The notes under the pieces: model-generated
What the model was told of the DNA's origin: nothing
Seen by the model: only the letters and a program-made list of their open reading frames with translations
Database searches by the model: none
Shown: positions 24,455-34,942 of the stretch, one piece after another
Numbering within the stretch: the first letter of the stretch is position 1
How the letters are laid out: each line of letters starts with the position of its first letter
Translations under genes and position numbers: made by a program
Origin: Escherichia phage LorandFenyves_Bas91
Length of the DNA: 64,000 nucleotides
Sequence record: PQ850614.1
Strand: one strand, 5' to 3'

Positions 24455-26299
24455 TTAGTGTGTATGCATCCAGTTAAGTCCAATCTGACAATCAGATGCC
24501 AGAGGACATTCCATATTCAGATACTCGCCAGCTTTCTTAACACAAAGCTCGGTGTGCTCTTTGAGTTTCTGTACATCATTACGGTTTACTGAGAATTGAC
24601 CTTCATCGTGCATATCAATTACCTTAGCACAACGAACCTTATCTTTCTCAATCCACTTGTTAAGGAACATCATAGCATATTTCATAACAACAGCACCAGC
24701 ACATTGCAGGAGTGTGTTAAGGGCTTTATGAACCATAACCTTACCAGTGGCATCCCGTCTCATTGTAATCTTACGACCATCAACTCCAATCAAGTATCCT
24801 TGAGCAGCTTTCTCTGTCATACGATCAATGAGGATTGCAATACATGGATTCTCTGCCAAGAAACGTGCTCGCATCACTGAACCTTCGTCAGCCCCACCAC
24901 CTACAATTGAACCAAGCTTAGCGTCGCCAGCACCATAGTTAAATGCATAGATAAACGTCTTAGCGTTGTCACGAGTAGGAAGACCAGCAAGTTTCTGGTT
25001 GTGGGAGTGGATATCACCTTCAAGGAGAATATCACGATACATAATAGCAGAAGCTAAACCACGTTCTGCCAGAGCTTTCTTAGCTGGGTTGTTCTCTTCG
25101 ATTGCCTCAGCAAGCATATCCCTACACTCTTTAATGAGGTAGTGAGCGAGCATACGAAGTTCAAGTCCAGAACCATCATACCCTAAGAATACTTCTTTAC
25201 CAGCGGGTATGTAATATTTGTAAGCGCCTACAGGTTTGTCTTTCTTCCCCGGCTTACCTTTCTCGTAAATTACGTTAGTACCTTTTCGTATATAACAACC
25301 ATCAGGAACAACGTTAGTAATAACGAAAGGACGAGAGTGATCACTGTCTGAGTTATAGTCAGACTCAAACAAACTGCGACACTCGTGACCAAACAGACCA
25401 CGGGAGGGAATATTAACCACGATACGATGTTTGAATCGAAAAGTCGGCGTAGCGCAGCTGTTAGCTTCTGCCGAAAGTTTACCATCTTCGCGTTCCTTTG
25501 CTATGAGTCCACTGATAAGACCTAGCCTGTGAGCCGCTACAACGCGTCTCTTAAGCAAACTTCCGACACTCCCTAGCTCACCCCCTAACCCTTCTTCAAG
25601 AGTCTCCTCGAGGTTTGTAGGAGCTGTAGGCCACTTGTTTGATGTGGCTAGTGCTTTCTTAATCTCATCAAACGTTACAGGATTACGGCGATTAGGGTTC
25701 AACCCCAAACCAAATACGTAAGCCTTCATGTAATTCTTAGTCTTAAACCTGAAATGCTTTTCTAAGAACTTCTTAATATCAGCGTCAACCATCTCGGCTG
25801 TCTGCTTCTGCTTAGCATTGCCTCGCATCCAAGCAGTATACCATGCTTGGTATGTTCCATACTTTCTCATATCTTTCTTAATTTCGAAAGTATTCCAAGG
25901 CTTCTTAGATACGTTAAACTCTGGAGGAAGAAAGCCCTCATCCATAAGAGCTTCTTTAACTCGTGCATCTTTCGATGGGTCAAAGTCTACGTATTCGACA
26001 CAGGTGAAAGCTCCACCAATATCTTCTCTCTTCAGCCCAACCCTATCACAATAGGCTTGAGGCCACTTCTGTAAAGCTCCAGACTTCTTAAATGGCTTCA
26101 TGTAAGTAGAGCCATCTAATCTCATCTTAGGTAAGAGAGGAATCAACTCTCTGTCAATATTAACAATAATCTCTTTAAGGAGGTGAACATACCACCGAGC
26201 ATTTCTTCGGTTGAAACTCACTCCGTGCTTTGCTTGCTTAGAGATTATATCAGCGACAGTCATCTCTGTCAAAAATGGAAGAGCGTCCGGGTTGCTCAC
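24455..26299 (-). CDS. family A DNA polymerase, polymerase (thumb/palm/fingers) portion only
   Basis: Motif A LGYDGSGLELRMLAHY, motif B RDNAKTFIYAFNYGAG, motif C VIDMHDEGQF. No exonuclease motifs in this ORF. Confidence 0.9.
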   Translation of the reverse strand: MSNPDALPFLTEMTVADIISKQAKHGVSFNRRNARWYVHLLKEIIVNIDRELIPLLPKMRLDGSTYMKPFKKSGALQKWPQAYCDRVGLKREDIGGAFTCVEYVDFDPSKDARVKEALMDEGFLPPEFNVSKKPWNTFEIKKDMRKYGTYQAWYTAWMRGNAKQKQTAEMVDADIKKFLEKHFRFKTKNYMKAYVFGLGLNPNRRNPVTFDEIKKALATSNKWPTAPTNLEETLEEGLGGELGSVGSLLKRRVVAAHRLGLISGLIAKEREDGKLSAEANSCATPTFRFKHRIVVNIPSRGLFGHECRSLFESDYNSDSDHSRPFVITNVVPDGCYIRKGTNVIYEKGKPGKKDKPVGAYKYYIPAGKEVFLGYDGSGLELRMLAHYLIKECRDMLAEAIEENNPAKKALAERGLASAIMYRDILLEGDIHSHNQKLAGLPTRDNAKTFIYAFNYGAGDAKLGSIVGGGADEGSVMRARFLAENPCIAILIDRMTEKAAQGYLIGVDGRKITMRRDATGKVMVHKALNTLLQCAGAVVMKYAMMFLNKWIEKDKVRCAKVIDMHDEGQFSVNRNDVQKLKEHTELCVKKAGEYLNMECPLASDCQIGLNWMHTH

Positions 26300-26315
26300 T
26301 TTATACTCCTTTAAA

Positions 26316-26738
26316 TTATTGGTAAAGTAAATCTGTAAATGCTTGGTTATCTTCTACTACATTCAACATGGTAGCTTCATCACTATAAGCCCTAACCGTC
26401 CCGTTGACAACTGTCCAAGGAGGAGGTGGAGGTGGTGTATGGTTAGCCCTAGCTTCACGAGGTTGCTCTCGTACTAAATGAGCCACAACCCTTTGGTTAG
26501 CGACTTCTTCTCTTTCTCTAATAGCTCTCTGGATATAGGCCAGCTTCATGCCCCAAGCTTCTTCAAACTCTTGAGGATGCTTATCACTGATAACCACATA
26601 CTGACGTTCAGAAATACCAGAGCGAATCTCTGATAATAATTCATGGAACAAATCTAGTTCGTGCTCAGTGAGATTCATTTCAATATCATCCCACTTTAGA
26701 ACTAGGAAACGGTTTTGGTGTCTAGCTGGTAATGGCAT
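26316..26738 (-). CDS. hypothetical protein (140 aa)
   Basis: Track ORF containing a PPPPPP run. No recognisable domain. Confidence 0.6.
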   Translation of the reverse strand: MPLPARHQNRFLVLKWDDIEMNLTEHELDLFHELLSEIRSGISERQYVVISDKHPQEFEEAWGMKLAYIQRAIREREEVANQRVVAHLVREQPREARANHTPPPPPPWTVVNGTVRAYSDEATMLNVVEDNQAFTDLLYQ

Positions 26739-26741
26739 AAC

Positions 26742-33012: not shown

Positions 33013-33021
33013 TCTTATTCC

Positions 33022-34383
33022 TTAGTTATTTGTTTCCATGTCAAAAGAGATTCCACGACCCGCTTCATCGGCAAACCGAACTGTTCGGGTTTGAGGTTCT
33101 AATACTTCAGGGTTGTTAGCAACAAACCGATCAGCGAGACTACGACTGACAGTCTCAGCTAATTCACCATGAGAAGGGATATCAAGACTACCTACCACAT
33201 CTTGGGCCACACCTTCATCAGTCCACACAGCCCTAACAGGTGCGTTGATATCACCAACAGCAAAACCCTGACCAGAGAACTGACGTGCGCTAACAGTTAA
33301 ACCGTTTGGTCGACCACGAGAAGGTCTAGCCATCCATCGCTCCATAGAATCACTTGTAATACCAAGAGCTTCTTCAAAAGATGTTCTACGAGTAGGGCTT
33401 ACTCTTCGTGACTCTTGTGCTCGACGCATTGCAGGGGCTACAAACACCCCTTCAATTGCATTGTGTCGGTTAGGTTCCTCTTCTCGACCAAGCAGATCAC
33501 CACCCGTGTTAGTCGTTAAATTTGTCAACCCCTCAGACCAATACGCATGAATCTGACCAGAACCGTGAAGGCTAGACATAATCTGAATCTCTTCATAAGG
33601 GATTCCAAAGAATCGACTCATGTCTCGGTTGACACAATATAGAGCACTTGTTGTATCTTCAATAAGAGAAACCTGACCTAATCCATTGACTAAATGACTA
33701 ACTGGCTGAGGTGTGGGAAGATATCGAGTTTGGGCCATGTATTGATGTGCAACTGCTGGAGAGGAAAATCTCAACACTTGTGAGTTAGGCCACTTCTTGT
33801 GAACATACCTGATTTCACGACTAGAGACAACCACTGGACAAGGGGAAGTCATAGCCAAATATCCGTGAGAAGTCATGAATAATTTGTCAAGAGTCATCGC
33901 ACCACGGCACATCATAGGAAAATTATCCAATACCTCTTCAATAGAAGTAGGATAATTAAACATGAATTGGATACGAACCCCATTCCACTGAAACTCAATA
34001 ATATCAGTGAATGTTAATTGAGAACCCCCAGCATAGGATTCGTTTGTAGCTTCAGCAAGAAGTGATGCATATTCAATATCTTGTGACTCTAGCCATTCCT
34101 TCACATTACTTTCAATCTCCCGTCCAAGCTCTTGCCAACGATCAGTTGGGATGAAAGTGTTTTGAGTTCTTGGTGTTTGTCCTCTGACAATAAAGATATC
34201 AATGTCATGTGGAGCTATGTTATTAAGGACAGCATCACGAACAGCCCCACCAGTAATGATGGGACAGATACCATCTGGAATCAAGTTGTTGTTAATCAAC
34301 TGTTCAATGAAGTGACGACCAACAGTGATATCAGGTTGTTGAGCAACCTTATCTTCAATTTGGTTAATCGGGATAACAATCAT
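33022..34383 (-). CDS. nucleotidyltransferase of the CCA-adding / poly(A) polymerase head-domain family with a long unique C-terminal region
   Basis: Start moved to ATG 34383 (just after the exo gene stop). Motif ITGGAVRDAVLNNIAPHDIDIFIV equals GGxVRDxLL...DxD. About 300 further residues have no recognised domain. Confidence 0.7.
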   Translation of the reverse strand: MIVIPINQIEDKVAQQPDITVGRHFIEQLINNNLIPDGICPIITGGAVRDAVLNNIAPHDIDIFIVRGQTPRTQNTFIPTDRWQELGREIESNVKEWLESQDIEYASLLAEATNESYAGGSQLTFTDIIEFQWNGVRIQFMFNYPTSIEEVLDNFPMMCRGAMTLDKLFMTSHGYLAMTSPCPVVVSSREIRYVHKKWPNSQVLRFSSPAVAHQYMAQTRYLPTPQPVSHLVNGLGQVSLIEDTTSALYCVNRDMSRFFGIPYEEIQIMSSLHGSGQIHAYWSEGLTNLTTNTGGDLLGREEEPNRHNAIEGVFVAPAMRRAQESRRVSPTRRTSFEEALGITSDSMERWMARPSRGRPNGLTVSARQFSGQGFAVGDINAPVRAVWTDEGVAQDVVGSLDIPSHGELAETVSRSLADRFVANNPEVLEPQTRTVRFADEAGRGISFDMETNN

Positions 34384-34384
34384 T

Positions 34385-34942
34385 TTACATTTTCCAATAT
34401 AATGAAGGTGGGTCGTAAGGGTCAAATCCCGTGAGTTCACACAAGAAAAGATAAACCTTAACAGTTAAGTTAACGTCCTGTTCACAATAAGTAAACATAT
34501 CTTCAGTGAAAGCATCCCATGCTTCCTCTTGCTCACCATAATCGCCCTTAAGCTCTCCTAAGAACTCACCCCACTGCTTCAAACCATGACCTCTTGGGCC
34601 ACGTCTAGGGTCGCCTTTCGGATACTCAGGACTGTCACCAATACGGTCAGGTTTAAGATATCGACTAAGACATAAAGTGTCAAAGACGTTAAAATTATAT
34701 TTAATCAAAGAGGGATACATCTTTTTCAGAGCAGGTAAGTCGAAGTCAATAATATTATGACCCACTAGTACATCTGCTTCTGTAAGTTTACGAATCCCAT
34801 CTTCAATTTGGTGAGGCCGATAGCCCCACCTTTCACCAGTTTCAACATCAAAGATATAAATACACCATACTTTAGTTATGTCATCGTACAGTGCATTACT
34901 CTCGATATCGAATGCAAACACTTTCTTCTTTTTCTTTACCAC
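34385..34942 (-). CDS. 3'-5' exonuclease domain of family A DNA polymerase, encoded as a separate ORF
   Basis: ExoI FAFDIESN, Exo[15 protein letters not shown], ExoIII YCEQDV. 185 aa, with no polymerase motifs. Confidence 0.85.

What the first reader, a model, noticed from the sequence alone, without database searches (positions are those of the whole stretch)
24455..34942. Family A DNA polymerase split into exonuclease and polymerase ORFs about 8 kb apart
ORF 34385-34942 (185 aa) carries only Exo I/II/III motifs: [20 protein letters not shown] 24455-26299 (614 aa) carries only polymerase motifs A, B and C and begins where a thumb/linker region would start. More than 25 unrelated genes lie between them, including the CCA-NTase-like, dcd, Dps-like, thioredoxin, thyX-like and phoH genes. 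This is not an intein, an intron or a simple frameshift. The two halves must be made separately and presumably assemble in trans, or the exonuclease works independently.
Basis: seen in the sequence. Interest (0 to 1): 0.6.

Follow-up and report, generated by a model that had tools for sequence, protein, structure and literature searches.

The report
Split T7-type DNA polymerase, already known
This E. coli phage of the phiEco32/SU10 group encodes the proofreading and DNA-copying halves of its T7-type polymerase as two genes 8 kb apart; the split is real and ancient, but it is already annotated and noted in the literature, so it is not a new find.

Summary
ORF 34385-34942(-) is a complete, catalytically intact T7-type 3'-5' exonuclease domain. 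ORF 24455-26299(-) is the matching T7-type polymerase domain. Together they tile T7 gp5 (residues 2-~190 and 213-704) and six fused relatives end to end, and the break falls in the exo-pol linker. There is no room for an intein. The 8,085 intervening bases hold about 21 co-oriented genes (not more than 25), including PhoH, ThyX, thioredoxin, a Dps-like protein and dCTP deaminase. No other PolA was found in the window, nor is one annotated in the closest complete genome.

The window is 99.2% identical to Escherichia phage vB_EcoP-CHD5UKE1 (Kuravirus SU10). The same order (primase/helicase, then exo immediately after, then 0.9-8.5 kb of other genes, then pol) occurs in all nine split loci I checked. 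These span Kuravirus relatives, Grimontviridae, LUZ24-like phages and metagenomic contigs. A tree is consistent with one old fission, with moderate support.

GenBank labels both SU10 genes "DNA polymerase". Papers from 2012 and 2023 (the former citing the 2008 phiEco32 paper) state that exo and pol are separate genes in these phages. A 2023 NAR paper modelled an analogous split as a heterodimer. Assembly in trans here is inferred, not shown. Verdict: already known, low interest.

The parts
34385..34942 (-). Stand-alone 3'-5' proofreading exonuclease (185 aa), equivalent to T7 gp5 residues 2-~190. It carries a conserved C-terminal tail, GFDxxNPP.
   Evidence: Pfam PF01612. Best PDB hit is T7 gp5 residues 3-178. 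hhalign to T7 gp5 gives E 6.3e-27. AF2 pLDDT is 94.3 and the best fold match is the T7 DNAP exo domain. Catalytic D12, E14, D68 and D156 are invariant and Y152 is nearly invariant. The tail is conserved in about 48 close homologues.
24455..26299 (-). Polymerase-only subunit (614 aa: thumb, palm, fingers), equivalent to T7 gp5 residues 213-704. It has lineage-specific insertions at about residues 133-220, 325-364 and 389-420.
   Evidence: Pfam PF00476. hhalign to T7 gp5 213-704 gives E 5.5e-56. AF2 pLDDT is 92.3 and the best fold match is T7 DNAP. Motif A, B and C residues are invariant. AAGGAG lies 7 nt before the GTG at 26299.
34936..36726 (-). T7 gp4-like primase/helicase (596 aa). Its stop codon overlaps the exo start by 7 nt. 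It has an acidic C-terminal tail ending in Trp.
   Evidence: Pfam DnaB_C and Toprim_2. Overlap read. The helicase-then-exo order holds in all nine split loci checked: adjacent or overlapping in eight, and separated by one 107-aa ORF in L091.
26300..34384 (-). Intervening block of about 21 co-oriented genes. It includes PhoH (27725-28462), a stand-alone ligase Ia-like domain (28631-28960), ThyX (29709-30365), thioredoxin (30381-30656), a Dps-like protein (30905-31516), dCTP deaminase (32479-33012) and an NTase-like protein (33022-34383).
   Evidence: ORF list. Pfam. Annotations of SU10 and CHD5UKE1. Two intergenic terminator-like hairpins lie at 30898-30870 and 27347-27324.
30381..30656 (-). 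Phage-encoded thioredoxin (91 aa, CAPC active site). It is a candidate processivity partner of the T7-type polymerase; this is inferred only.
   Evidence: Pfam thioredoxin, E 2.1e-13. Sequence. The hypothesis was raised for the related phage Privateer in PMC7881722.
16958..17776 (-). Separately encoded 5'-3' exonuclease (FEN-type, 272 aa), as in T7 (gp6).
   Evidence: Sub-threshold Pfam 5_3_exonuc_N, E 6.5e-6. It corresponds to 'exonuclease' gp032 of NC_070989. PMC9965538 lists it as a separate subunit.

Best explanation
The window is a Kuravirus (phiEco32/SU10-type) phage genome. Its replicase is a T7 gp5-type family A DNA polymerase whose gene was cut, long ago, exactly in the linker between the proofreading domain and the polymerase domain.

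The exonuclease gene stayed directly behind the T7 gp4-type primase/helicase gene, with overlapping stop and start codons, so the two are probably translationally coupled. The polymerase gene was pushed downstream as other genes accumulated between them: 0.9-2 kb in 45-kb LUZ24-like genomes, and 3-8.5 kb in 77-90-kb genomes, including 8.1 kb here. In the larger genomes these are largely nucleotide-metabolism genes.

Both products keep every catalytic residue. The most likely mechanism is that the 185-aa exonuclease and the 614-aa polymerase bind each other non-covalently and rebuild a gp5-like two-domain enzyme. That enzyme would shuttle a mismatched 3' end from the pol site to the exo site and work with the primase/helicase, possibly with the phage's own thioredoxin.

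Shown here: the identity of both halves, the position of the break, intact active sites, co-inheritance, and absence of another PolA. Inferred: physical assembly and proofreading in trans.
For: Identity of the window:
- 99.2% nucleotide identity to Kuravirus SU10-type phages.

Both halves derive from one T7-type enzyme:
- PDB sequence hits are T7 gp5 3-178 for exo and about 295-704 for pol.
- Profile alignments place exo on T7 2-~190 and pol on T7 213-704.
- AF2 models (pLDDT 94.3 and 92.3) match T7 DNAP best.

The break is at the linker, with nothing lost:
- Six fused relatives of 597-618 aa match exo at their N-terminus. They then match pol from its residue 12, within about 20 residues of the end of the exo match.
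- 60 fused loci with complete profile matches show the same junction.

Both genes are under purifying selection:
- Catalytic residues are invariant or nearly so.

The genes are co-inherited:
- Primase, exo and pol identities fall in parallel across lineages.
- The order helicase, exo, gap, pol holds in all nine split loci checked.

One old fission is plausible:
- Pol-only sequences form one clade in a neighbour-joining tree, bootstrap 64/100. The clade plus its nearest fused group has 89/100.

No alternative polymerase:
-.

Expression:
- Both genes lie in the leftward middle-class gene cluster of phiEco32-like phages (PMC8948821).

Assembly in trans has a precedent:
- The AF2 complex of the analogous S-SBP1 split PolA superposes on an uninterrupted homologue. 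The same paper notes that PolAs are known to need the exo domain structurally (PMC10201439).
Against: - No direct evidence of an exo-pol complex was obtained here.
- Two canonical-looking intrinsic terminators lie between the genes, so equal expression is not guaranteed.
- The exo is coupled to the primase/helicase gene rather than to pol. That would also fit a helicase-associated or free-standing exonuclease.
- Bootstrap support for a single fission is only moderate (64/100).
- The exo product was not in the SU10 proteomics passages retrieved, whereas pol was, with 2 peptides (PMC4281155). That was mass spectrometry of the phage's proteins, so its absence says little.
Confidence: 0.7

Rival explanations
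1. The exonuclease works without binding the polymerase. It could be a free 3'-5' exonuclease or a partner of the primase/helicase, acting on primers or 3' flaps, in recombination, or in host DNA breakdown. The polymerase would then replicate without an attached proofreader.
For: The exo gene is directly behind, or overlapping, the primase/helicase gene in eight of the nine split loci, and one small ORF away in the ninth. It is never next to pol. Two terminator-like hairpins separate exo from pol.
Against: The exo is the T7 gp5 proofreading domain, not a generic DnaQ. Its nearest relatives are N-terminal domains of fused PolAs. In T7 the fused polymerase gene likewise follows the primase/helicase gene, so the position can be plain inheritance. 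Exo was found wherever a pol-only gene was found with enough upstream sequence, which is 9 of 9 loci. PolA pol domains are reported to need the exo domain for stability (PMC10201439).
Confidence: 0.2
2. The exonuclease was recruited independently. It would be a separate acquisition of a DEDD exonuclease by a phage whose polymerase had lost its own exo domain, rather than a fission product.
For: The two genes are 8 kb apart, and phage genomes are mosaic.
Against: Exo and pol are each about 36-43% identical to the same fused proteins. Their identities fall in parallel across lineages. Together they tile the fused enzyme and T7 gp5 exactly.
Confidence: 0.05
3. The split is only apparent. It would be a sequencing or assembly error, a frameshift, an intron, or a split intein that rejoins the halves.
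For: Relatives do carry real insertions in the pol gene. An endonuclease VII gene interrupts pol at motif B in Bas93 and in Pseudomonas phage TL, and there is a break at motif C in L010.
Against: 61 phage records cover at least 80% of the 12.8-kb region in one place, and the annotated SU10 and CHD5UKE1 genomes show the same two genes and gap. The gap holds about 21 genes; its functional core recurs between exo and pol in Kuravirus and SE131, and in part in P59. The exo ends 14 residues after its last helix, and pol aligns to T7 from its residue 8-10, so no intein halves fit. Both genes have their own start codon and ribosome-binding site.
Confidence: 0.02

Closest known systems
Kuravirus (phiEco32, SU10, YF01) and Grimontviridae (7-11/SE131, Privateer/P59) replication modules
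   Same: Same genes in the same order. The window is 94-99% identical in nucleotides to many Kuravirus genomes. SU10 annotates both ORFs as 'DNA polymerase'. PMC9965538 states that pol, 3'-5' exo and 5'-3' exo are separately encoded in all group members and in 7-11, Privateer, Vp_R1 and BUCT695. PMC3517423 credits the 2008 phiEco32 paper with reporting this organisation.
   Different: Nothing material. Gap length varies: 8.1 kb here, 6.8 kb in SE131, 4.5 kb in P59.
LUZ24-like Pseudomonas phages (Bruynoghevirus): 'DNA polymerase part I / part II'
   Same: Primase/helicase, then an overlapping 3'-5' exo gene, then small genes, then a pol-only gene. Pol is 39-41% and exo about 33% identical to the window proteins.
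   Different: The gap is only about 1.9 kb and lacks the nucleotide-metabolism genes. Pol is about 545 aa. In LUZ24 and TL the pol gene is further interrupted by an intron carrying an endonuclease.
S-SBP1-like cyanophage split PolA (Czernecki et al., NAR 2023, PMC10201439)
   Same: A T7-like PolA is split at the exo/pol boundary into two genes. An AF2 complex of the two products superposes on an uninterrupted homologue.
   Different: There the genes are adjacent and overlapping. The split arose recently from a +1 frameshift, and close relatives are uninterrupted. Here the split is old and shared by several phage families, and the halves lie 0.9-8.5 kb apart. I infer it is a separate event.
Bacteriophage T7 gp5 with thioredoxin and gp4
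   Same: It is the best sequence and fold match for both halves. Tyr is at the T7 Y526 position (Y451). The polymerase gene follows a gp4-type primase/helicase with an acidic C-terminal tail. The 5'-3' exonuclease is a separate gene.
   Different: T7 gp5 is a single 704-aa chain. The thioredoxin-binding loop is roughly halved here, and an ~85-residue helical insertion is present. The thioredoxin is phage-encoded rather than supplied by the host.
E. coli Pol III core (alpha polymerase plus epsilon proofreader) and archaeal PolD (DP2/DP1)
   Same: Polymerase and proofreading exonuclease are separate polypeptides that act as one enzyme. The Pol III comparison is from established knowledge. The PolD comparison is made in PMC10201439.
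   Different: The polymerase families are unrelated. This is an analogy of architecture only.

Membership tests
T7-type family A DNA polymerase (PolA cluster #5 of PMC10201439) | Pol motifs A, B and C with catalytic Asp/Glu, Arg/Lys and HDE | tested here: met
   D375, E380, R443, K447 and H564-D565-E566 are invariant in 77 homologues. Pfam PF00476.
T7-type family A DNA polymerase (PolA cluster #5 of PMC10201439) | Tyrosine at motif B position B3 (T7 Y526) | tested here: met
   Y451 aligns with T7 Y526, and motif B reads RDNAKTFIY in both.
T7-type family A DNA polymerase (PolA cluster #5 of PMC10201439) | 3'-5' exonuclease domain on the same polypeptide | tested here: not met
   The pol ORF aligns to T7 from residue 213 only. 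Its predicted N-terminus has no RNase H-like fold. The exo is a separate gene 8,085 nt upstream.
T7-type family A DNA polymerase (PolA cluster #5 of PMC10201439) | Thioredoxin-binding insertion in the thumb | tested here: inconclusive
   Only a shortened, weakly aligned counterpart is present, at residues ~58-97 against the T7 TBD region. No complex prediction was possible.
DEDDy 3'-5' exonuclease (PF01612, PolA proofreading domain) | Exo I (DxE), Exo II (NxxxFD) and Exo III (YxxxD) motifs on an RNase H-like fold | tested here: met
   D12/E14, N63/D68 and Y152/D156 are conserved. The AF2 fold matches the T7 exo domain.
Split PolA of phiEco32-like / LUZ24-like phages (separate exo and pol genes) | Gene order primase/helicase, exo, intervening genes, pol-only gene, with no fused PolA in the genome | tested here: met
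   Near-identity to Kuravirus genomes.
S-SBP1-type split PolA (adjacent fission by frameshift) | Exo and pol genes adjacent or overlapping, created by a +1 frameshift | tested here: not met
   8,085 nt and about 21 genes separate them. Features of the S-SBP1 type are from PMC10201439.
S-SBP1-type split PolA (adjacent fission by frameshift) | The two products form a heterodimer equivalent to the fused enzyme | not testable with these tools
Split-intein or intron-interrupted polymerase | Intein halves at the new termini, or a non-coding or homing-endonuclease insertion between exons | tested here: not met
   The exo ends 14 aa after its last helix, and pol aligns to T7 from its residue 8-10. The gap is filled with about 21 co-oriented genes.

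The most novel reading that the evidence does not exclude
The split may be functional rather than a frozen accident. The exonuclease gene sits directly behind, or overlapping, the primase/helicase gene in eight of the nine split loci, and it carries a clade-specific conserved tail (GFDxxNPP). It could therefore be made in step with the helicase and delivered to the polymerase at the fork as an exchangeable proofreading subunit. That would let the phage run the polymerase with or without editing, for example for strand displacement, lesion bypass or late-stage synthesis. For a family A enzyme this would be a Pol III epsilon-like arrangement.
Probability: 0.12. Interest if true: 0.55.

Novelty: already known. 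Interest (0 to 1): 0.2.

Why it matters
It matters little as a discovery. The arrangement is in GenBank annotations and in genome papers from 2012, 2014 and 2023, the first of which credits the 2008 phiEco32 paper.

It still has some value. This is a natural, old and widespread two-subunit family A replicase from easily grown E. coli phages. I found no paper among those I searched and read that tests it biochemically. [quoted passage not shown]

It could serve as a convenient system for two questions: how a PolA pol domain is stabilised by an exo domain supplied in trans, and whether fidelity can be tuned by subunit stoichiometry.

Tried and rejected
- IMG/VR scan with the pol profile. It returned mostly distant, fused marine and soil T7-like polymerases. 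These were useful as fused comparators but poor as a survey of split relatives. The survey was done instead with annotated phage records and encoding contigs.
- The 2008 phiEco32 paper (PMC2587145) is not held. Its content is cited only through PMC3517423.
- Foldseek output gives no residue mapping. The breakpoint was therefore mapped by hhalign to T7 gp5 and by BLASTP to fused relatives.
- A vestigial exo domain inside the 614-aa protein, as in Taq or Bst large fragments, was considered because the protein is 100-200 aa longer than a minimal pol domain. It was rejected. The extra length comes from helical and hairpin insertions, and the predicted N-terminus is the thumb helices.
- A paralogous PolA or exo elsewhere was sought and not found in the window.
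- L010 (a 125-kb contig) has a pol relative but no exo or primase in the 5.5 kb upstream that is available. It is uninformative about gene order.
- The internal sigma-70-like promoter in pol was checked for conservation. It is identical in near-identical Kuraviruses but absent from L007, SE131 and P59, so it cannot be judged.

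
Full report
**What the window is.** The 12.8-kb stretch around the finding is 99.2% identical to Escherichia phage vB_EcoP-CHD5UKE1. It is 94-97% identical to SU10, SGF2 and many other Kuravirus (phiEco32-like) genomes, and 61 phage records cover at least 80% of it. All genes in this region lie on the minus strand.

**Checking the observation.** ORF 34385-34942(-) encodes 185 aa and carries [12 protein letters not shown] and YCEQD. It matches Pfam DNA_pol_A_exo1. ORF 24455-26299(-) encodes 614 aa. Pfam DNA_pol_A matches only residues 361-611. 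Motif A (FLGYDGSGLELRMLAHY), motif B (RDNAKTFIYAFNYGAG) and motif C (IDMHDEGQ) are all present.

In alignments of 58 exo and 77 pol homologues the catalytic residues are invariant or nearly so. For exo these are D12, E14, D68, Y152 and D156. For pol they are D375, E380, R443, K447, Y451, H564, D565 and E566.

The pol GTG at 26299 is preceded by AAGGAG at a 7-nt spacing. This favours the SU10 annotation (1845 nt) over the RefSeq start 12 codons later. The exo GTG at 34942 overlaps the primase/helicase stop by 7 nt. The exo stop is 1 nt before the ATG (34383) of the next gene.

The gap is 8,085 nt and holds about 20-21 minus-strand ORFs. The closest annotated genomes list 22-23 CDS there, so 'more than 25' is an overcount. 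PhoH, ThyX, thioredoxin, a ferritin/Dps-like protein and dCTP deaminase are confirmed by Pfam. The NTase-like call rests on a sub-threshold match.

**Are they two halves of one enzyme?** Yes.
- By sequence, the exo's only PDB hits are T7 gp5 residues 3-178 (E 1.5e-12). Pol's best hits are T7 gp5 residues ~295-704 (E 1.2e-32).
- By profile-profile alignment, the exo family covers T7 gp5 2-~190 (E 6.3e-27). The pol family covers T7 gp5 213-704 (E 5.5e-56).
- The break therefore falls in the ~20-residue linker between the T7 exonuclease and polymerase domains.
- AF2 models are confident, with pLDDT 94.3 for exo and 92.3 for pol. Foldseek ranks T7 DNA polymerase first for both.
- The predicted pol N-terminus is two long thumb helices followed by small alpha/beta and helical insertions. 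It has no RNase H-like remnant, so the protein does not hide a dead exo domain.

Six fused relatives of 597-618 aa match the window exo at their N-termini (36-42% identity). They then match the window pol from its residue 12, within about 20 residues of the end of the exo match. In 60 fused IMG/VR loci with complete profile matches, a profile built from stand-alone exos ends at about residue 140-190. A profile built from pol-only proteins starts at or just after that point, in the same ORF. Nothing is lost or duplicated, and there is no room for intein halves.

**Is there another polymerase?** tblastn of both proteins against the window finds only themselves. The closest complete genome has no other PolA annotated. 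Each Kuravirus record listed shows one place per query.

**Survey of relatives.** All 65 close exo homologues in the 5.8-billion-protein set are stand-alone proteins of 101-247 aa. Close pol homologues are pol-only. In the exhaustive representative search the exo profile hits 5,917 clusters. The best 150 mix stand-alone proteins with N-terminal domains of 550-730-aa polymerases.

Gene context was read for nine split loci. Every one has the order primase/helicase, exo, other genes, pol. Exo lies immediately after the helicase gene or overlaps it in eight of them, and one 107-aa ORF intervenes in L091.

| Locus | Gap between exo and pol |
|---|---|
| L093 | 0.9 kb |
| L092 | 1.4 kb |
| Pseudomonas phage TL and L009 (LUZ24-like) | 1.9 kb |
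| L091 | 3.2 kb |
| Proteus phage P59 | 4.5 kb |
| Salmonella phage SE131 | 6.8 kb |
| This window and SU10 | 8.1 kb |
| L007 | 8.5 kb |

Three further points bear on the history.
- In the larger genomes the gap is filled with dcd, thioredoxin, ThyX, Dps-like and PhoH genes.
- In the nearest fused relative the order is primase/helicase, ligase, fused PolA. In T7 the fused polymerase gene likewise follows the primase/helicase gene.
- Identities of primase, pol and exo to the window proteins fall in parallel across lineages, so the three genes travel together.

A neighbour-joining tree of the pol domain groups all 35 pol-only sequences together, with bootstrap 64/100. Together with the nearest fused group they have 89/100. 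This is consistent with one old fission, but it is not strongly resolved.

**How it most likely works.** Shown: two intact, co-inherited catalytic modules that together equal a T7 gp5, next to a gp4-type primase/helicase. The helicase has an acidic C-terminal tail ending in an aromatic residue. Both genes lie in the leftward gene cluster that is middle-class in phiEco32.

Inferred: the two proteins re-associate into a gp5-like heterodimer that proofreads. Three points support this.
- The homology to fused enzymes.
- The published AF2 complex for the analogous S-SBP1 split, and that paper's note that PolA pol domains need the exo domain structurally.
- A conserved C-terminal exo tail (GFDxxNPP...W) found in the close stand-alone exos, including the window exo, but missing from the most distant stand-alone homologues. 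It occupies the position of the T7 linker and could be a docking strand.

Two points weigh against simple 1:1 co-expression.
- Two intergenic terminator-like hairpins lie between the genes.
- Exo is coupled to the helicase gene, not to pol.

The main rival is therefore an exonuclease that acts on its own or with the helicase. I give that about 0.2.

**Comparison with what is known.** The arrangement is already public.
- SU10 annotates both genes as DNA polymerase.
- LUZ24-group genomes use 'DNA polymerase part I / part II' or '3'-5' exonuclease'.
- PMC3517423 (2012) says exo and pol are separate genes in all LUZ24-group phages. It adds that a similar organisation was reported for phiEco32, citing Savalia et al. 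2008.
- PMC9965538 (2023) says the separation of the polymerase from both exonucleases is common to all Kuravirus-like phages and to 7-11, Privateer, Vp_R1 and BUCT695.
- PMC10201439 (2023) describes an adjacent, recent exo/pol fission in S-SBP1-like cyanophages and models the complex. Its main text does not mention phiEco32 or LUZ24.

I found no biochemical study of any of these split enzymes in the papers I searched and read.

**Verdict.** The finding is already known. Interest is 0.2.

Noticed in passing
window 26244-26272 (- strand), inside pol codons 10-19: A perfect extended sigma-70 promoter consensus (TTGACA, 17 nt, TG-n-TATAAT; 12 of 12 matches) lies just inside the 5' end of the pol ORF, downstream of both candidate start codons. 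It is identical in near-identical Kuraviruses but absent from L007, SE131 and P59, so function or chance cannot be decided.
   Followed up: partly
L004 (Escherichia phage AidaStucki_Bas93) 1001-3551; L003 (Pseudomonas phage TL) 8034-10340; L010 5513-8394: In some relatives the pol gene itself is interrupted. An endonuclease VII gene sits at the same site in motif B (profile position 396/398) in a Kuravirus-like phage and in a LUZ24-like phage. A ~630-nt insertion splits motif C right after the His of HDE in L010. The window's pol is uninterrupted. Protein hits of ~450 aa, such as P0079 and P0164, reflect the motif B site.
   Followed up: partly
window 28631-28960 (- strand): A 109-aa protein consists only of the N-terminal Ia (NAD+-binding) domain of NAD-dependent DNA ligase (Pfam Nlig-Ia, E 2.6e-34). 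SU10 labels it 'NAD-dependent DNA ligase', although it lacks the catalytic domains.
   Followed up: no
window 33022-34383 (- strand): A 453-aa protein starts 1 nt after the exo stop codon. Its only Pfam match is a sub-threshold PolyA_pol/CCA-adding head-domain hit at residues 43-124. The remaining ~330 residues have no family match.
   Followed up: no
window 30381-30656 (- strand): The phage encodes its own 91-aa thioredoxin with a CAPC active site, inside the block between exo and pol. A thioredoxin-domain gene is also annotated between exo and pol in SE131. It may play the role host thioredoxin plays for T7 gp5; this is untested.
   Followed up: partly
window 34936-35030 (- strand), C-terminus of the primase/helicase: The primase/helicase ends in an acidic tail with a terminal aromatic residue (...[31 protein letters not shown]). 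From memory, this resembles the T7 gp4 tail that binds gp5.
   Followed up: no
window 30870-30898 and 27324-27347 (- strand): Two strong intergenic hairpins followed by T-runs (11-bp and 10-bp stems) lie between exo and pol. They could divide the block into separate transcription units. The overall terminator count in the region is not above the shuffled expectation.
   Followed up: no
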